This document shows, piece by piece, positions 840 through 30,252 of a stretch of 53,962 bases of DNA (its first letter is position 1; every line of letters begins with the position of its first letter). The translations under genes were made by a program, and so were the position numbers. Under the pieces are notes generated by a model. It was not told the DNA's origin, ran no database searches, and was given only the letters and a program-made list of their open reading frames with translations. Source of the stretch: a virus; UHGV virus genome UHGV-0212970, one strand, 5' to 3'.

Positions 840-1498
840 TATTTACCTCCCGTGTATTCAACGTGTCCGATACATCCGTCAATAATAGCTTGTGCCATAT
901 TGCGATAATCACGCGAATAATCATTATCACGATTGAAATTTATTTCTCCTGCCGCATCCTCACCAATAACCTTCGTAGCCAGAGCAAACGCAATTTGCGC
1001 CAGTGCTTTTTCTTTCGGATCAACGTATAAATAATAATTATAAAAACCCCATTCAATAGCATTTTCTTTCTGTATACTGCCTTTTTCTGTGTATACCCCG
1101 TATTTATCACCGATAAACTTAAACATTACAATCCCAATGTAATAGCCATCAGGATAATAACAATCAAGCCACACGCCGCACGGCGGCTTTTCTCCTGGCT
1201 TCCATTCTGTTTTTTCTTGTTGTGTTTCGCAATCATGGCGTTCATCTTCGATTAATTCATCAATGATTTCACTTTCTTTATTCATGCCGTCATCATCCTT
1301 ATTCGATAAATTAGCGTATTTATCAAATTTCCAGCTTGCAGCCATAACCGAATAAGTGCCGCCAGTGTCAGCGCGGACACCCAATAAATAGTATGATCCA
1401 AAATTATATTCTGTGCGGCATGTTGTTACCTCAAACGATGGGTAACATTCAGGGTTAGTGCGATGGCTAATCACGCCAATTGCTTTTAGTTTATTCAT
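839..1498 (-). CDS. Hypothetical protein (about 220 aa)
   Basis: ORF track 839..1513; likely start at MNKLKAIG with GAGGA SD upstream; no motif recognised. Confidence 0.5.
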   Translation of the reverse strand: MNKLKAIGVISHRTNPECYPSFEVTTCRTEYNFGSYYLLGVRADTGGTYSVMAASWKFDKYANLSNKDDDGMNKESEIIDELIEDERHDCETQQEKTEWKPGEKPPCGVWLDCYYPDGYYIGIVMFKFIGDKYGVYTEKGSIQKENAIEWGFYNYYLYVDPKEKALAQIAFALATKVIGEDAAGEINFNRDNDYSRDYRNMAQAIIDGCIGHVEYTGGK

Positions 1499-1513
1499 TT
1501 TGCTTATCCTCAA

Positions 1514-1690
1514 TTACGCCACAGTTACGTTGTCAACTTTGATAAAATATTCAGGGTGATTTTCTATTTCGTGCTGAAAGTGAGCGTGACACAATCGCCA
1601 CTCCCGCGCCTGGTTGTGGAAGTAATAAACATATTCGCCATCAACCTTATACAAAATTCCGGTAGGTTTAGCCATGTAATAACGCGCCAT
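1514..1690 (-). CDS. Small hypothetical protein (58 aa)
   Basis: ATG overlaps the NinB stop (TAATG coupling), SD GGGGG upstream; below ORF-track size cut-off. Confidence 0.3.
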   Translation of the reverse strand: MARYYMAKPTGILYKVDGEYVYYFHNQAREWRLCHAHFQHEIENHPEYFIKVDNVTVA

Positions 1691-11638: not shown

Positions 11639-11863
11639 ATGATCGAAGATAAAGAAGTTGACGGAGAAATTCCTGACGGCGCTGATGAGCTTATCACTTT
11701 CGGCGGCAGGCTGTACGAGTTCGAAACGTCTGCGGGGTGGCACGATAAATGGCCTTTCCCTACTCGCCAGGAATTAAGTGACCGCAAAGCATTCGGCGAA
11801 GATGCAGAACGGCTGGCTAATAACAAATGGCTTGATAAGTTCATTGCGGAGGGTGGCAAATGA
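11639..11863 (+). CDS. Hypothetical protein
   Basis: 74-aa ORF with SD; acidic. Confidence 0.45.
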   Translation: MIEDKEVDGEIPDGADELITFGGRLYEFETSAGWHDKWPFPTRQELSDRKAFGEDAERLANNKWLDKFIAEGGK

Positions 11864-11943
11864 ATCTTGCAAAAATTGCCGCATTGCTTGCGGCTTTATC
11901 TATCGCGTGCTGTATCTCAGCGTGTCGCTTTATATCACGGTAG
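11860..11943 (+). CDS. Small hydrophobic peptide (27 aa)
   Basis: MNLAKIAALLAALSIACCISACRFISR; ATGA overlap with upstream stop. Confidence 0.3.
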   Translation: MNLAKIAALLAALSIACCISACRFISR

Positions 11944-11980
11944 CGATCATTAAACTCATTACTAACATGTGAGGCCAATC

Positions 11981-12100
11981 ATGAAAGTCGGTAAGGACAT
12001 TGTGACGGTCGCGTTTTGCATTATTTTCTTCCTTTTTGTTGTTGTGTTTTGTGGCGCATTTGCTGCGCTTGTTAGCTTTATTTTCAGAGGGTTGATGTAA
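11981..12100 (+). CDS. Small membrane peptide (39 aa)
   Basis: MKVGKDIVTVAFCIIFFLFVVVFCGAFAALVSFIFRGLM; SD GAGG upstream; possible kil-like early membrane protein. Confidence 0.3.
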   Translation: MKVGKDIVTVAFCIIFFLFVVVFCGAFAALVSFIFRGLM

Positions 12101-24985: not shown

Positions 24986-25180
24986 ATGATTGAATGTCTT
25001 ATCATTGCTGTGTTTCTCCTTTATATTGCTGGCGCTATCCTGATGTCTTGTTTTATCAAATCTAATGATCTCGATCGTGGTGGTCTTGAGATTCCTTTCT
25101 GGCCTGTAGCGGTGTTTATTGCTCTCGTAGATGCCACGCGCGCGCAGATCAAAAGGGTTATTAAGGAGCGCAAGAAATGA
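24986..25180 (+). CDS. Small membrane protein
   Basis: 64 aa; two hydrophobic segments. Confidence 0.4.
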   Translation: MIECLIIAVFLLYIAGAILMSCFIKSNDLDRGGLEIPFWPVAVFIALVDATRAQIKRVIKERKK

Positions 25181-25464: not shown

Positions 25465-25665
25465 ATGTTCGACAGAATACGGGAGGCGTGTGCGTATGTG
25501 ACTGGGGCCGTAACTGCTTTTTTCGGCGCGATAACCATCAATGACATTGCCGTCTTTGTGGGTATCTTATCAACCGTAGGCACATTTGCCGTTAATTATT
25601 ACTTCAAATTACAGGAGAACAAGCGAGCGCAAGAGGAACACGACGCGCGAATGGGGAATAAGTAA
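25465..25665 (+). CDS. Class II holin (pinholin-like, phage 21 S type)
   Basis: 66 aa; two TM segments and charged C-terminus, architecture like S21 as I recall it; directly upstream of SAR endolysin. Confidence 0.75.
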
Positions 25666-26616: not shown

Positions 26617-26894
26617 CAGCGCGTGGACGTGTCGCCGTTTCCGCCAGCCAGCCATAACCGGGTCAATCCTTCCCGCGAGCGACGGCGGAATAGTCAAAAA
26701 CACGTAATACCGGATCATCCATCCCATTAACAGGTCAGGCGCTACCTGGGTAGAAGAAAGCGCCATTTACCAATTTTATAAAATTCTGGAAACGGTACTG
26801 ATGAAGCGCCGTTTTCAGTGTTTTATAGCTGTTTTCACTCCCTGCGGTGTCGAGTTTTGCGGGGGTTATATTTTCAGGATAGAGGAATATTCTG

Positions 26895-27437
26895 ATGGCT
26901 AAGGCTAAAGGCATTAAGTTGCCTCAATTCAAGATCCCGCTCTTTGAGCATACAACCGTTTTCTTTTGCCCGACCCGCGAGATGTTTTATGAATTTTGCG
27001 AAAAGGCAGGAATTCCAATCGAACCTGATTTCGAACTGGCAGGCGGCCTGACATTAACCTGCACAGGTGAGAAAGGCGGTAACTTCTACGTGATTGCAGT
27101 GTTCGACAATGAGCTTGGAACGCTGGTCCATGAAGCGGCGCACACGACATTTCACGTTTTAAGTGATGTAGGTGTCGTGGCAACCACTGGTCCAACTCAT
27201 CCGGCGAACGAGACTTACGCTTACATGGTAGGCCGCATCTTTGATGCATTTTTCCCTATCCTGGCCGAATCAAACGAAGCACAGGTTGCAGCAATGCAGG
27301 CTGCTGAAGTAGTAGAGCGGGCATTAGAACAGGCAGAACAGCCGAAGGAAGAAGAAAAACCCGCTAAGAAAGGCAAACGTAAGCCGAAATCAAAAGAAGC
27401 GTATGTACCGCGCGTAATGAGCTTTAAACGAGGTTGA
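26895..27437 (+). CDS. Hypothetical protein with HExxH zinc-metallopeptidase-like motif and lysine-rich C-terminal tail
   Basis: 180 aa; TLVHEAAHTTFH; C-terminus KPAKKGKRKPKSK. Confidence 0.5.
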   Translation: MAKAKGIKLPQFKIPLFEHTTVFFCPTREMFYEFCEKAGIPIEPDFELAGGLTLTCTGEKGGNFYVIAVFDNELGTLVHEAAHTTFHVLSDVGVVATTGPTHPANETYAYMVGRIFDAFFPILAESNEAQVAAMQAAEVVERALEQAEQPKEEEKPAKKGKRKPKSKEAYVPRVMSFKRG

Positions 27438-27439
27438 TT

Positions 27440-27529
27440 ATGATTGCGTCAATATTAACGTTTATGGGTGGCGTGGCATTCGGATTCATTATTTGCCTGT
27501 TTATGGTGATTATGTCTATGCGAGGCTGA
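27440..27529 (+). CDS. Tiny TM peptide 1 of 9 (29 aa)
   Basis: MIASILTFMGGVAFGFIICLFMVIMSMRG; SD GAGG 7 nt upstream. Confidence 0.4.
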   Translation: MIASILTFMGGVAFGFIICLFMVIMSMRG

Positions 27530-27531
27530 TT

Positions 27532-27627
27532 ATGGACGCTTACATCATCTCCGGATTAATCGGTGTTTCTGTATTTATGGTGGGATTTGTTATTGCCGTG
27601 CTGATAACCGTAAAGAGTAAATTATGA
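27532..27627 (+). CDS. Tiny TM peptide 2 of 9 (31 aa)
   Basis: MDAYIISGLIGVSVFMVGFVIAVLITVKSKL; SD GAGG. Confidence 0.4.
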   Translation: MDAYIISGLIGVSVFMVGFVIAVLITVKSKL

Positions 27628-27698
27628 ACTCCTACGATTTCATCTGGTTATTGGTGCTCATTGTAGGTATTGGCGTGAACATTTGCAGGCTATGGTGA
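27624..27698 (+). CDS. Tiny TM peptide 3 of 9 (24 aa)
   Basis: MNSYDFIWLLVLIVGIGVNICRLW; ATGA overlap. Confidence 0.4.
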   Translation: MNSYDFIWLLVLIVGIGVNICRLW

Positions 27699-27702
27699 AA
27701 AT

Positions 27703-27777
27703 ATGATTGACCCGCTAATTATCCTTTCTGCCTGCGTCGCTGTATGGCTGGCGATCATGATATTCATTGAAAGCTGA
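27703..27777 (+). CDS. Tiny TM peptide 4 of 9 (24 aa)
   Basis: MIDPLIILSACVAVWLAIMIFIES; SD GGTGA. Confidence 0.4.
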   Translation: MIDPLIILSACVAVWLAIMIFIES

Positions 27778-27788
27778 AGGTATTCACC

Positions 27789-27863
27789 ATGAATATTTAC
27801 GATCTCATCTGGTGGTCGTTGGTCGCCGTCATTATCTATTTCTGGTGGAAGAATGTTGTATAG
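27789..27863 (+). CDS. Tiny TM peptide 5 of 9 (24 aa)
   Basis: MNIYDLIWWSLVAVIIYFWWKNVV; SD GAAGG. Confidence 0.4.
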   Translation: MNIYDLIWWSLVAVIIYFWWKNVV

Positions 27864-27871
27864 GTGAAAGC

Positions 27872-27952
27872 ATGAACGCATACGATATGCTATTGCTGGT
27901 GGCTGTTATTACAGTCATTGCCGTTGATGTGTATCGGGAGTTTAAAAAATGA
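27872..27952 (+). CDS. Tiny TM peptide 6 of 9 (26 aa)
   Basis: MNAYDMLLLVAVITVIAVDVYREFKK; SD AGGTGA; same frame and end as ORF-track 27767..27952. Confidence 0.4.
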   Translation: MNAYDMLLLVAVITVIAVDVYREFKK

Positions 27953-28017
27953 AATGGCTTGATTTCTTTTTCCTGATTGTTGCGATTGTTCTTACCATGA
28001 CAGCACTGACTCAATAG
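27949..28017 (+). CDS. Tiny TM peptide 7 of 9 (22 aa)
   Basis: MKWLDFFFLIVAIVLTMTALTQ; ATGA overlap. Confidence 0.4.
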   Translation: MKWLDFFFLIVAIVLTMTALTQ

Positions 28018-28025
28018 GTGAGCTA

Positions 28026-28181
28026 ATGGATGTTATCGAAGCCGTATTATTCGTATGTATCGCCGCGTTAATTATCGTAGGGGTATTATCAATGTCTGAC
28101 AGTGATTTCTTAATCATGGCTATAAGTTCGCTGTTGGTTTTGGTTATCGTCCTTATTACCTGGGCGCTTTCTATTATGTGA
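28026..28181 (+). CDS. Small membrane protein 8 of 9 (51 aa, two TM segments)
   Basis: MDVIEAVLFVCIAALIIVGVLSMSDSDFLIMAISSLLVLVIVLITWALSIM; SD AGGTGAG. Confidence 0.4.
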   Translation: MDVIEAVLFVCIAALIIVGVLSMSDSDFLIMAISSLLVLVIVLITWALSIM

Positions 28182-28191
28182 AGGGTAAACA

Positions 28192-28275
28192 ATGAAAGAG
28201 CTATTCGACTGGTTGGAAGTATTAACATACTGCGCAAGTTTTGTTGCTTGCGTATATATCATCAATAAATATTGA
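28192..28275 (+). CDS. Tiny TM peptide 9 of 9 (27 aa)
   Basis: MKELFDWLEVLTYCASFVACVYIINKY; SD AAGGG. Confidence 0.4.
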   Translation: MKELFDWLEVLTYCASFVACVYIINKY

Positions 28276-28285
28276 GAGGTGAAAT

Positions 28286-28771
28286 ATGGCCCGCACTAAA
28301 AAGGCAAATGCTGACGATAAAAAGCCAGCCGCTAAAAAGGTGGGCCGTCCGCATAGCTATACCGAAGAAAAGGCATTAGAAATATGTGAGCTGGTGGCGG
28401 ACGGTCAGAGCGTTAATAAAATATCGAAGATGCCTGGTATGCCTACCCGTTCAACAATCCTGAAGTGGTTTAGGGATGTGCCGGAATTTTCGGACATGTA
28501 TATGCGCGCGAAAGAAATCGGCTTCGAGGTATTAGCTGATGAGATCCTCGATATAGCTGATGATGCTAAGAACGTTGATAAAGACCAACTACGCCGCCAC
28601 CAACTAATGATTGAAACGCGTAAATGGTTACTGGCAAAACTGCAACCGCGTAAATATGGTGAACGCGTCACACAGGAGATCGTCGGCAACAGGGAGGAAG
28701 CGCCCGTACAGGTTGAAGTCACGAAAGAAGAGATCGCCCGCATCGTCCAGGAAGTAGAAGACGAGGTGTGA
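28286..28771 (+). CDS. Terminase small subunit
   Basis: 161 aa; GRPHSYTEEKALEICELVADGQSVNKISKMPGMPTRSTILKWF ... LMIETRKWLLAKLQPRKYGERV matches the TerS pattern. Confidence 0.8.
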   Translation: MARTKKANADDKKPAAKKVGRPHSYTEEKALEICELVADGQSVNKISKMPGMPTRSTILKWFRDVPEFSDMYMRAKEIGFEVLADEILDIADDAKNVDKDQLRRHQLMIETRKWLLAKLQPRKYGERVTQEIVGNREEAPVQVEVTKEEIARIVQEVEDEV

Positions 28772-30252
28772 TTATGTTGTCCATCAAAGAAAGGGTTATT
28801 CAGTCAAAATGTGAAAACGATGGCCTGTTTTTCAACCGCTATTTCTACAAGCAAGCAAACGGTACGAAGATGTTTGTCTCAGGTCATCACATAGCTATCC
28901 GCGATGCACTGCAACGCGTTATCAATGGTGAGATTACCCGACTCATCATTAACATCCCCCCAGGGTACGGTAAAACCATGATTGCGACCATTAACATGAT
29001 GGCACGCTCCCTCGCAATAAACCCACGCACACGCTTTCTTCACGTTTCCTATTCAGACAACCTTGCATTACTCAATTCCTCGACGGTCAGAAACATGATT
29101 TGCTCGCAGGAATACCAGAAGTTATGGCCCATGAAGATCCGCAATGACGCCAACAGCAAATCAATGTGGTGGACAGAACAGGGTGGCGGGATATATGCCG
29201 CATCGTCACATGGTCAGATTACGGGTTTTCGTGCTGGGTACATGGAGCCAGGCTTTAACGGCGCGATGATTATCGACGACCCATTAAAGCCAGCTGACGC
29301 TTACTCTGATGTAATGCGGGATAAGGTAAAGACCAACTATAACGACACGCTGGCTTCACGTCTGGCAGTGCAAACCACGCCCGTGATCGTCATTATGCAA
29401 CGCATCCACTACGATGATTTGTCCGGCTACCTGTTACGCGGTGGCAGTGGTGAGAAATGGTATCACCTTAACCTGCCAGTGAAGATCGACAATAGCATCG
29501 ACTATTGGGATCTGTACCCTGAAAACGAATTCGCTATTCCTATTGCTCATAACCTGCCAGACGGCTGGCTATGGCCTAAAAAGCACAATGATAGCCATGA
29601 GGCCGGACTGAAAGCGCACCGTAGGTCATTCGAGGCACAGTACATGCAGCGCCCGCGTAAATTCGACGAGGAAGGCGCGTTATGGACTGAAGCCATGATA
29701 ACCGCCGCGCACCGGATGCAGATAACGCAGGACAAGATCCGCACTGTGATAGCCATCGACCCTGCAACAACATCATCTGATGAATCTGACGAAACCGGGA
29801 TCGTGGCATGTTCCGCCTATGGTGGCGGCAAGTACGCACAGTATTCTGTAGACGGTGACTACTCAGGCCGCATGTCTCCTAACGATTGGGCGCAAGCATC
29901 AATTAACGCTTACAACATCCATGAAGCTGACGCGATAGTTATCGAAACCAACCAGGGCGGGGAAATGGCAGAGGCCACGCTACGCAATGCCGGATTTAAA
30001 GGCCGCATTGTTAAGGTGCACGCAAGTAAGGGTAAATTCGCCCGCGCCGAGCCAATATCGGCACTGTATGCTCAGGGAAGGGTAGCCCACACTGGCAGCC
30101 TGTACACGCTGGAAAATCAAATGATGGAATACGTGCCAACTACCGCTAAAAAATCACCTGACCGCCTCGACGCAATGGTATGGGGTGTCACTGAATTAAG
30201 CCAGCCACAGGCAATGGGTCTTATGTTACCGAAGCGCATGCGCGGATTTTAA
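28768..30252 (+). CDS. Terminase large subunit
   Basis: 494 aa; ATPase P-loop-like PPGYGKT, nuclease domain acidic residues; follows TerS. Confidence 0.9.
   Translation: MIMLSIKERVIQSKCENDGLFFNRYFYKQANGTKMFVSGHHIAIRDALQRVINGEITRLIINIPPGYGKTMIATINMMARSLAINPRTRFLHVSYSDNLALLNSSTVRNMICSQEYQKLWPMKIRNDANSKSMWWTEQGGGIYAASSHGQITGFRAGYMEPGFNGAMIIDDPLKPADAYSDVMRDKVKTNYNDTLASRLAVQTTPVIVIMQRIHYDDLSGYLLRGGSGEKWYHLNLPVKIDNSIDYWDLYPENEFAIPIAHNLPDGWLWPKKHNDSHEAGLKAHRRSFEAQYMQRPRKFDEEGALWTEAMITAAHRMQITQDKIRTVIAIDPATTSSDESDETGIVACSAYGGGKYAQYSVDGDYSGRMSPNDWAQASINAYNIHEADAIVIETNQGGEMAEATLRNAGFKGRIVKVHASKGKFARAEPISALYAQGRVAHTGSLYTLENQMMEYVPTTAKKSPDRLDAMVWGVTELSQPQAMGLMLPKRMRGF

What the first reader, a model, noticed from the sequence alone, without database searches (positions are those of the whole stretch)
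27440..28275. Tandem array of nine tiny transmembrane-peptide genes between lysis cassette and terminase
Nine consecutive ORFs of 22-51 codons, each with its own SD and a single hydrophobic helix (the 51-aa one has two), are packed head-to-tail with ATGA overlaps. Several share an N-terminal M-(N/D)-x-Y-D-(F/L/M)-I-W/L pattern (peptides 3, 5, 6; weaker in 2 and 4), so they look like a diverged paralogous family. They are invisible to the 60-aa ORF cut-off. The upstream HExxH protein may belong to the same module. I do not recognise this arrangement from known lambdoid phages; candidate roles are membrane-active toxins, antiholin or superinfection-exclusion peptides, or regulators of membrane proteins.
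Basis: seen in the sequence. Interest (0 to 1): 0.8.

Follow-up and report, generated by a model that had tools for sequence, protein, structure and literature searches.

The report
Shuffled array of tiny membrane-peptide genes
A temperate E. coli phage carries, just upstream of its DNA-packaging genes, nine real but mostly unannotated genes for 22-51-residue membrane peptides; related phages carry different subsets of these genes, and their function is unknown.

Summary
Window 27440-28275 contains nine head-to-tail plus-strand ORFs of 22-51 codons. All are hydrophobic and together they cover 95% of the stretch; none of 2000 shuffles matched this.

They are genes, not chance ORFs. Across 65 related loci (mEp021/mEpimmI-group coliphages and E. 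coli prophages) there are about 21 peptide families. Pooled dN/dS is 0.25 in the called frame, against 0.95 and 1.45 in the other two same-strand frames. More than 98% of 576 copies are intact. SD motifs are enriched, and 93% of junctions are 15 nt or shorter.

The array is modular. Each phage has 3-13 cassettes, about 48 compositions were seen, and the order is always colinear. Indel breakpoints lie at start codons of similar 5' ends, which points to unequal recombination between paralogues. The window's 51-aa "two-helix" ORF is a derived fusion of three one-helix genes.

A sister phage has the HExxH gene directly abutting terS, so the array is an insertion and the HExxH gene is not part of it. 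Peptide 1 alone is shared, at 97% nucleotide identity, with about 90 lytic rV5-like phages.

No peptide matches a known family. The most likely role is late-expressed, N-out single-pass inner-membrane microproteins that bind membrane proteins. This role is inferred, not shown.

The parts
26777..26827 (+). Terminator-like hairpin followed by a U-run, between the Rz/Rz1 spanin genes and the HExxH gene. It marks the upstream edge of the HExxH-array-terminase block.
   Evidence: dG -26.3 kcal/mol, z -4.7, 0 of 200 shuffles as stable. The corresponding site is annotated as a Rho-independent terminator in the mEp021 and mEp013 records.
26895..27437 (+). Upstream neighbour, not part of the array: 180-aa HExxH...E zincin-like protein (phrog_1365, function unknown). 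Its last codons carry the SD for p1.
   Evidence: H79, E80, H83 and E106 are invariant in 60 homologues; it abuts terS directly in sister phage L068. AF2 model pLDDT 92, with no informative structural neighbour.
27440..27529 (+). p1, family A1, 29 aa: MIASILTFMGGVAFGFIICLFMVIMSMRG. The GGxxxG motif is conserved. The same microgene is present in lytic Vequintavirus phages.
   Evidence: 96.7% nt identity to an intact ORF in rV5 that is unannotated in that record, and matches in about 90 related records. dN/dS 0.30.
27532..27627 (+). p2, family B, 31 aa: MDAYIISGLIGVSVFMVGFVIAVLITVKSKL.
   Evidence: Present in 57 of 65 loci. dN/dS 0.27. The exact sequence is in nr as DAH35107.1, a hypothetical protein.
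27624..27698 (+). p3, family C, 24 aa: MNSYDFIWLLVLIVGIGVNICRLW. Variable cassette with an ATGA overlap with p2.
   Evidence: Present in 12 of 65 loci. dN/dS 0.19. Its 5' end is paralogous to p5 and p6 (repeat D1, C-G z 7.6).
27703..27777 (+). p4, family D, 24 aa: MIDPLIILSACVAVWLAIMIFIES. Near-universal core cassette.
   Evidence: Present in 62 of 65 loci, and all 61 detected DNA homologues are intact. dN/dS 0.30.
27789..27863 (+). p5, family E, 24 aa: MNIYDLIWWSLVAVIIYFWWKNVV.
   Evidence: Present in 44 of 65 loci. dN/dS 0.34. Deletion breakpoints lie at CATGAA...CATGAA.
27872..27952 (+). p6, family G, 26 aa: MNAYDMLLLVAVITVIAVDVYREFKK. Core cassette with a basic C-tail.
   Evidence: Present in 63 of 65 loci. 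dN/dS 0.26.
27949..28017 (+). p7, family I, 22 aa: MKWLDFFFLIVAIVLTMTALTQ. Core cassette with an ATGA overlap with p6. Member of the H/I/K/L/R paralogue subfamily.
   Evidence: Present in 60 of 65 loci. dN/dS 0.14. Paralogy z 5.7-6.6.
28026..28181 (+). p8, 51 aa: a derived in-frame fusion of three ancestral one-helix genes, J (codons 1-20), K (about 1-13) and L (about 10-23).
   Evidence: (alignment A2): a 1-nt deletion (GGGGT-ATTATCA) joins J to the K frame, and a 65-nt deletion joins K to L in frame. Relatives have separate J, K and L. The fusion allele is seen on a few other contigs.
28192..28275 (+). p9, family N, 27 aa: MKELFDWLEVLTYCASFVACVYIINKY. Universal and the most constrained cassette. 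Its 3' end carries the terS SD.
   Evidence: N or its variant N2 is present in 65 of 65 loci. dN/dS 0.07 with pS 0.25.
28286..28771 (+). Downstream neighbour: Sf6-type small terminase subunit (terS), 10 nt after p9. terL follows at 28768-30252.
   Evidence: PF20901, E 1e-37; phrog_1482.

Best explanation
SHOWN. The region is an operon-internal array of genuine protein-coding microgenes. Each encodes one hydrophobic helix, typically with an acidic N-tail and a neutral or basic C-tail. The array was inserted between a zincin-like gene and the small-terminase gene in the mEp021/mEpimmI group of temperate coliphages. It consists of a near-universal core (families D, G, I, N and mostly B) plus variable cassettes. 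Its content changes through deletion, fusion and probably duplication at the similar 5' ends of paralogous cassettes, always preserving cassette order.

INFERRED. The genes are transcribed with the packaging and late genes. There is no room for, or sign of, separate promoters or terminators, and gaps are 11 nt or less, which suggests translational coupling from the HExxH gene through to terS. The peptides are too short for co-translational SRP targeting, so they would insert post-translationally (via SRP, SecYEG or YidC) as N-out/C-in single-pass inner-membrane microproteins. Each would then act, as characterised bacterial small membrane proteins do, by helix-helix binding to a larger integral membrane protein of the host or of a competing phage during lytic growth. 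That would make them an interchangeable accessory toolkit for host takeover, exclusion or counter-defence, rather than dedicated partners of this phage's holin. The targets are unknown.
For: Coding: pooled Nei-Gojobori dN/dS is 0.25 in the called frame against 0.95 and 1.45 in the other two same-strand frames. Every family falls between 0.07 and 0.38, and third-position changes dominate. The neighbouring terS and HExxH genes give 0.16 and 0.10. Of 576 cassette copies, only about 8 carry real disruptions. An SD of 4 nt or more precedes 83% of 605 cassettes, against 34% of random positions, and 93% of junctions are 15 nt or less. The shuffle test gives 0 of 2000.

Membrane character and topology: hydrophobic cores throughout. 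The N-tail has net negative charge in 17 of 21 families and the C-tail has charge of zero or above in 19 of 21. GGxxxG is invariant in p1 across alleles only 73-80% identical.

Insertion and accessory nature: sister phage L068 has the HExxH stop 3 nt before the terS ATG. There are 3-13 cassettes per phage and about 48 compositions in 65 loci, all colinear.

Recombination mechanism: breakpoints lie at ATG..ATG, CATGAA..CATGAA and TATGATTG..TATGATTG. The window carries a J::K::L chimera. Paralogue z-scores reach 8.5, and junction and 5'-end repeats are present.

Late or lytic role: no plus-strand sigma-70-like site or convincing terminator lies inside the array. p1 is conserved in about 90 strictly lytic Vequintavirus genomes. 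Holin alleles do not co-vary with array content.

Insertion route and mode of action of small membrane proteins: review PMC12648545.
Against: There is no direct evidence of transcription, translation, membrane insertion or any phenotype. No peptide matches Pfam, and PHROG hits are marginal, so function rests on analogy. One antisense frame also shows a low ratio (0.34). This is the expected echo of the shared wobble position, and antisense ORFs are not conserved in length (36-125 aa), but it shows that dN/dS alone cannot fix the strand. An internal promoter of a type the scan does not model cannot be excluded. N is universal and more constrained than terS, which fits a core function better than an 'accessory toolkit' role. 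Late expression is unusual for exclusion functions.
Confidence: 0.55

Rival explanations
1. The peptides tune lysis. As small membrane peptides made alongside the holin, they would act as antiholin- or holin-like modulators, or as mild depolarisers that set the time of holin triggering. Cassette content would then adjust lysis timing.
For: They lie about 820 bp downstream of the holin-endolysin-Rz/Rz1 cassette and on the same strand. Late co-expression is plausible. p8 has a weak PHROG holin hit, E 0.1. Established knowledge: accessory membrane proteins modulate lysis in P1 (Lyd), P2 (LysA/B), T4 (RI) and Mu.
Against: A terminator-like hairpin and the HExxH gene separate the array from the lysis genes. 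One identical holin allele occurs with nine different array compositions, so there is no co-variation. The sister phage has the same type of lysis cassette (holin, lysozyme, Rz-like) and no array. In rV5, p1 sits among small hypothetical genes, with no lysis gene annotated in the flanks examined. There is no significant match to a holin family.
Confidence: 0.15
2. The peptides are membrane toxins. They would resemble type I toxins (Ibs, Ldr, TisB, Hok) or the single-gene lysis peptides of small phages, depolarising the membrane or blocking a membrane step of cell-wall synthesis to shut the host down.
For: Their size (22-51 aa), single helix and short tails match the description of type I toxins (PMC12648545). 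Tandem paralogous copies recall the ldr and ibs loci of E. coli, and single-gene lysis peptides can be as short as about 35 aa (both from my own knowledge).
Against: The genes are operonic with ordinary SDs and short junctions rather than being monocistronic and translationally masked. No conserved antisense promoter or RNA family was found. Nine to thirteen co-expressed toxins would be redundant in a phage that already has a holin, endolysin and spanins. Prophages keep the genes more than 98% intact without a visible antitoxin, which is only tolerable if they are silent in lysogens.
Confidence: 0.12
3. The genes are lysogenic-conversion or superinfection-exclusion genes. The prophage would express them from an unrecognised internal promoter to protect or benefit the lysogen, like other morons at the lysis-packaging boundary (for example lambda bor).
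For: The array is extra DNA between genes that are adjacent in a relative, which is the moron criterion. It shows presence/absence polymorphism typical of accessory genes. Lambda carries bor at the analogous position.
Against: No plus-strand promoter-like site lies in or just before the array, and no terminator follows it. Junctions of 11 nt or less tie it to the HExxH and terS genes. p1 is maintained in strictly lytic phages, where lysogen benefit cannot apply. The group's known exclusion factors are a repressor and Lpp lipoproteins encoded elsewhere (PMC11893012).
Confidence: 0.1
4. The peptides themselves have no function. The stretch would be a cis-acting element (a packaging-recognition or translational-coupling spacer for terS) or a nursery of de novo ORFs in T-rich DNA.
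For: It lies directly upstream of terS with tight coupling. It shows high turnover, fusions and occasional start-codon loss. There are no homologues outside the group other than p1.
Against: Constraint is frame-specific and at the amino-acid level, with abundant synonymous change: pS 0.28 against pN 0.07. ORFs are intact in more than 98% of copies. Array length varies from 318 to 1154 nt and the array is absent in a sister phage, which is hard to reconcile with an essential cis site. No DNA-level tandem repeat or RNA family was found. In P22/Sf6-type phages pac lies within terS (my own knowledge).
Confidence: 0.04

Closest known systems
Bacterial small membrane proteins that regulate larger membrane proteins (AcrZ, MgrB, MgtS, KdpF, CydX, YohP; reviewed in PMC12648545)
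   Same: They are 50 aa or less, have one transmembrane helix with very short tails, are missed by annotation, and insert post-translationally. Their mode of action is helix-helix binding within the bilayer, which is the mechanism proposed here.
   Different: There is no sequence relationship (Pfam shows nothing significant). The known examples are single chromosomal genes, usually stress-regulated. They are not a phage operon of 3-13 paralogous cassettes with presence/absence shuffling.
Type I toxin peptides in repeated loci (Ibs/Sib, Ldr/Rdl, Hok/Sok, TisB, DinQ)
   Same: Tiny hydrophobic single-helix peptides, some occurring as tandem paralogous copies in E. coli.
   Different: Type I toxins are monocistronic, translationally masked, and paired with an antisense RNA. 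Here the genes are co-directional, preceded by SD motifs and closely spaced, and no antisense promoter or RNA family was detected.
Phage morons at the lysis-packaging boundary (e.g. lambda bor; concept of Hendrix and colleagues)
   Same: Extra DNA lying between two genes that are adjacent in a related phage, in a region where lambda also carries accessory genes. Content varies among close relatives.
   Different: Classical morons carry their own promoter and terminator and are often expressed from the prophage. This array has neither, and reads as part of the late/packaging transcript. It is a multi-gene paralogous family rather than a single gene.
Holins, antiholins and accessory lysis membrane proteins (lambda S, T4 RI, P1 Lyd, P2 LysA/B, holin-like genes next to actinophage lysins)
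   Same: Small phage membrane proteins made late, near the lysis genes. Several such genes can sit in a row.
   Different: The phage has its own class II holin (PF16080) upstream. The array peptides are 2-3 times shorter than typical holins, match no holin family, are separated from the cassette by a terminator-like hairpin and another gene, and do not co-vary with the holin.
Pf3 and M13 coat-type membrane insertion
   Same: A short acidic N-tail, one helix and a basic C-tail predict N-out/C-in orientation and Sec-independent or YidC-type insertion (cites Kiefer and Kuhn 1999).
   Different: Those are virion coat proteins of filamentous phages. The similarity lies only in charge layout and the likely insertion route.

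Membership tests
Translated small membrane protein (50 aa or less, single transmembrane helix) | ORF of 50 codons or fewer (p8 has 51) with one hydrophobic helix long enough to span the bilayer | tested here: met
   every family has a 15-residue hydrophobic core (Kyte-Doolittle 1.9-3.4). p8 has two because it is a fusion.
Translated small membrane protein (50 aa or less, single transmembrane helix) | Evidence that the ORF is a gene: purifying selection on the reading frame, a conserved start and stop, and an SD | tested here: met
   dN/dS 0.25 against 0.95 and 1.45 in the other same-strand frames; more than 98% of copies intact; SD before 83% of cassettes against 34% of random positions.
Translated small membrane protein (50 aa or less, single transmembrane helix) | Peptide detected and located in the inner membrane | not testable with these tools
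   Requires Ribo-seq, tagging with fractionation, or mass spectrometry.
Holin / antiholin | Sequence membership of a known holin or antiholin family | tested here: not met
   no Pfam holin hit. The best PHROG holin hit is E 0.1, for p8 only.
Holin / antiholin | Gene lies within the lysis cassette and co-evolves with its holin | tested here: not met
   a hairpin and the HExxH gene intervene; one holin allele occurs with nine array compositions; the sister phage has a lysis cassette but no array.
Holin / antiholin | Alters the timing of membrane permeabilisation | not testable with these tools
   Needs lysis curves of deletion and complementation constructs.
Type I toxin-antitoxin | Small hydrophobic toxin peptide of under 60 aa | tested here: met
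Type I toxin-antitoxin | Antisense or divergent small-RNA antitoxin with its own promoter | tested here: inconclusive
   only two weak minus-strand promoter-like sites inside p8, and the total number of sites is below shuffle expectation; no Rfam family. Absence of an unknown sRNA cannot be proven.
Type I toxin-antitoxin | Stand-alone, translationally repressed toxin mRNA | tested here: not met
   the genes are operonic with SDs, and junctions are mostly -4 to +11 nt.
Moron | Extra DNA between two genes that are adjacent in a related phage | tested here: met
   in L068 the HExxH stop (4022) is followed directly by the terS ATG (4026). Array length is 318-1154 nt elsewhere.
Moron | Own promoter and terminator, allowing autonomous expression | tested here: not met
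   no plus-strand sigma-70-like site and no convincing terminator in or flanking the array. Only consensus scans were possible.
Tandem paralogous gene family | Members more similar to each other than composition alone explains | tested here: met
   H-L z 8.5, C-G 7.6, I-R 6.6; 25 of 210 family pairs have z above 3; 36-nt 5' ends of p3, p5 and p6 are 61-72% identical. Met for subfamilies (H/I/K/L/R and C/E/G/F/M). Not demonstrated for all families, e.g. A1, D and N.

The most novel reading that the evidence does not exclude
The array is a recombination-driven combinatorial set of transmembrane microproteins. In this reading it is a distinct kind of phage accessory locus, in which unequal crossing-over between the similar 5' ends of 70-100-bp genes continually creates, deletes and fuses single-helix peptides. 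Individual SD-ORF-SD units can move between unrelated phages, as p1 has between temperate siphophages and lytic rV5-like myophages. Each peptide would neutralise a different membrane-embedded target, such as a defence effector, an injection route used by competitors, or a host transporter.
Probability: 0.15. Interest if true: 0.85.

Novelty: new variant of a known kind. Interest (0 to 1): 0.62.

Why it matters
[quoted passage not shown] NCBI's pipeline annotates almost none of them, phage gene callers annotate them inconsistently, and the paper describing the group does not mention them. The locus offers a compact, natural experiment. Dozens of isolates differ mainly in which cassettes they carry, cultured members exist (mEp010, 013, 044, 515, 554, 021, MagusPhagus), and a natural array-less relative shows the deletion is viable. 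This makes the function and evolution of phage microproteins directly testable, including gene fusion and fission at the 20-codon scale and horizontal transfer of a 105-bp gene between lytic and temperate phages.

Tried and rejected
1. Family assignment. Pfam and PHROG scans of all nine peptides gave nothing significant. The best hits were p1 against phrog_6302 (E 1e-3) and p8 against a holin PHROG (E 0.1).

2. Wider homologues. The 47-aa M family has only relatives of 70% identity or more. A degenerate DNA pattern for peptide N found nothing in 100,044 species-representative genomes, and found only the same phage group in IMG/VR. terS found no relatives in the representative genomes.

4. DNA or RNA element hypotheses. 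No tandem repeats, no Rfam family or tRNA in the window, and no excess of promoter or terminator consensus sites.

5. Antisense genes. The 60-81-aa minus-strand ORFs, and a PGAP-annotated 129-aa minus-strand CDS in one genome, were rejected. Their lengths vary from 36 to 125 aa among loci and none is hydrophobic. The one antisense frame with a low dN/dS (0.34) is the frame that shares wobble positions with the sense frame.

6. Literature. Searches on mEp021, small phage genes, and small membrane proteins in prophages found no description of this array.

7. Holin co-variation was tested and not found.
Full report
WHAT IS THERE. The window is a temperate coliphage of the mEp021/mEpimmI group. 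Its closest records are Escherichia phage MagusPhagus and mEp010/044/554/013/515/021, at 86-91% identity over the late region. The order on the plus strand is as follows. First come the class II holin (25465-25665), endolysin, and Rz with embedded Rz1. A 278-nt spacer follows, containing a strong terminator-like hairpin (26777-26827; dG -26.3 kcal/mol, z -4.7), which corresponds to terminators annotated in the mEp021 and mEp013 records. Next is a 180-aa HExxH protein gene (26895-27437). Then come nine small ORFs (27440-28275), an Sf6-type small terminase gene (28286-28771; PF20901) and the large terminase gene. Successive genes from the HExxH gene to terS are separated by +2, +2, -4, +4, +11, +8, -4, +8, +10 and +10 nt.

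IS IT MORE THAN CHANCE. All nine plus-strand ATG ORFs of 20 codons or more are hydrophobic, and they cover 95% of the 836 nt. In 2000 dinucleotide-preserving shuffles the mean was 1.6 such ORFs (maximum 6) and mean coverage was 23% (maximum 84%). Codon position 2 is 56% T. This is the only run of three or more such ORFs in the window, and phage lambda, used as a minimal control, has none.

ARE THEY GENES. I assembled 65 loci with the same flanking genes: the window, 7 phage records, 10 E. coli prophages and 47 IMG/VR contigs. The peptides fall into about 21 families. Pooled Nei-Gojobori dN/dS is 0.25 in the called frame, against 0.95 and 1.45 in the two other same-strand frames. Every family lies between 0.07 (N, which is p9) and 0.38, and variable sites concentrate at third positions. 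For comparison, terS gives 0.16 and the HExxH gene 0.10. One antisense frame gives 0.34; this is the frame that shares wobble positions with the sense frame. Antisense ORFs are neither hydrophobic nor conserved in length (36-125 aa). Of 576 cassette copies recognised at the DNA level, about 8 carry a real disruption: one frameshift, one early stop, and a start-codon loss shared by four loci. The other apparent differences are length or start variants. An SD match of 4 nt or more precedes 83% of 605 cassettes against 34% of random positions in the same arrays, and 93% of junctions are 15 nt or less.

ARCHITECTURE AND EVOLUTION. Phages carry 3 to 13 cassettes (median 9). About 48 different compositions occur among 65 loci, and the order is always colinear: A-B-(O/C)-D-E-(Q)-F-G-(H/R)-I-J-K-L-M-N. 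G, N, D, I and B are near-universal (57-65 of 65 loci). J, E and K are common. F, L, H, M, C and the alternative first cassettes are variable. Large indels between arrays begin and end at start codons with short identities: ATG..ATG for F, CATGAA..CATGAA for E, and TATGATTG..TATGATTG for the A1-B-C block. Cassette 5' ends and junctions also repeat within the window. Family consensus sequences are more alike than shuffled versions (H-L z 8.5, C-G 7.6, I-R 6.6; 25 of 210 pairs above z 3). There is no DNA-level tandem repeat. Together this indicates old paralogues that are reshuffled by unequal recombination at their similar 5' ends.

THE 51-AA ORF. The window itself shows this reshuffling. Its 51-aa ORF is a chimera. 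A 1-nt deletion puts gene J in frame with gene K, which in relatives starts 8 nt before J's stop. A 65-nt deletion then joins K in frame to the last 14 codons of gene L. The "two-helix" member is thus three ancestral one-helix genes fused.

DISTRIBUTION. The array occurs in 35 of 5426 complete E. coli genomes, once per genome, and mostly without any annotated feature. Neither peptide N nor terS was found in 100,044 species-representative genomes. In IMG/VR, N occurs only in this phage group. The 2025 paper describing the group does not mention transmembrane or small ORFs in this region. Exact copies of p2 and p8 exist in nr only as "hypothetical protein" from a Caudoviricetes metagenome assembly.

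THE p1 EXCEPTION. A segment of about 105 bp, comprising the SD, the 29-codon ORF and the next SD, is 96.7% identical to an intact ORF in rV5 and matches about 90 other Vequintavirus (lytic myovirus) records. In the rV5 record this ORF is unannotated, lying between ORF137 and ORF138. Homology stops at the CGAGGCTGA(T/A)T motif found on both sides. Within the temperate group, p1 has two allele classes 73-80% identical to each other. The rV5 allele falls inside one of them, and GGxxxG is invariant throughout. A microgene kept by strictly lytic phages must be useful during lytic infection.

HOW IT PROBABLY WORKS. Shown: these are coding genes for single hydrophobic helices, inserted into the packaging operon, with a core-plus-accessory structure and recombinational turnover. 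Inferred from anatomy: there is no plus-strand promoter-like site or convincing terminator inside the array, and junctions are very short. The peptides should therefore be made from the same late message as the HExxH protein and terminase, after read-through of the upstream hairpin. The N-tail has net negative charge in 17 of 21 families and the C-tail has charge of zero or above in 19 of 21. By the positive-inside rule this predicts N-out/C-in topology. At 22-31 residues they are released before SRP can act co-translationally, so they would insert post-translationally via SRP, SecYEG or YidC, as described for bacterial small membrane proteins (PMC12648545). By analogy with those proteins, the most likely activity is binding to larger membrane proteins within the bilayer. 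One identical holin allele is found with nine array compositions, which argues against a dedicated antiholin role. The operonic layout, ordinary SDs and absence of detectable antisense signals argue against type I toxin systems. Frame-specific constraint, and absence of the array in a viable sister phage, argue against a cis-acting packaging element. The targets and the phenotype are unknown, and nothing here demonstrates translation.

VERDICT. I rate the locus a new variant of a known kind (phage accessory small membrane proteins, or morons). It is notable for its cassette architecture, for evolution at the 20-codon scale, and for a 105-bp gene shared between temperate and lytic phages.

Noticed in passing
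window 27434-27534; L004 (rV5 DQ832317) 1501-1602: The p1 microgene with its flanking SD motifs is 96.7% identical to an intact 29-codon ORF in rV5 and matches about 90 other Vequintavirus records. The ORF is unannotated in the rV5 record and in several others. Nine to eleven of the matching records are labelled 'Campylobacter phage' although they are rV5-like, so they may be mislabelled or contaminated.
   Followed up: partly
window 26895-27437: A small zincin-like protein with invariant HExxH plus a downstream Glu, followed by a long helix and a Lys/Glu-rich tail. It sits directly upstream of the small terminase gene in diverse phages. The AF2 model is confident, but no structural or functional neighbour was found.
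   Followed up: partly
window 26801-26902: A 33-codon ORF overlaps the terminator-like hairpin and is annotated as a CDS in MagusPhagus. Its conservation is probably that of the hairpin, not of a protein.
   Followed up: no
window 11860-12100: Two adjacent small plus-strand ORFs with SD motifs: a 27-aa ORF with a lipobox-like LSIAC, and a very hydrophobic 39-aa ORF (MKVGKDIVTVAFCIIFFLFVVVFCGAFAALVSFIFRGLM). They may be further unannotated membrane peptides.
   Followed up: no
window 24986-25180: A 64-aa ORF with two hydrophobic stretches and a basic tail lies about 285 bp upstream of the holin gene. It may be a holin-associated membrane protein.
   Followed up: no
L017 (E. coli O157:H7 LSU61) 1226-1615, minus strand: RefSeq annotates a 129-aa minus-strand CDS running antisense across the array. 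Antisense ORFs here are not conserved, so this is probably a misannotation caused by missing the microgenes.
   Followed up: partly
L014 (E. coli N25) 1926-2072: An extra soluble, acidic 48-aa ORF lies between cassette N and terS. It was seen in two loci and shows that the junction also accepts non-membrane inserts.
   Followed up: no
L007 (mEp013) 1212-1697; L067 2752-3273: HNH endonuclease genes are inserted in the same neighbourhood, between the HExxH gene and the array in mEp013 and between the endolysin and Rz genes in L067. The lysis-packaging boundary appears to be an insertion hot spot.
   Followed up: no
window 28192-28275: Cassette N is present in every array (N or its variant N2). 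Its dN/dS of 0.07 is lower than that of terS (0.16), yet the sister phage lacks it entirely. This is unexplained.
   Followed up: partly
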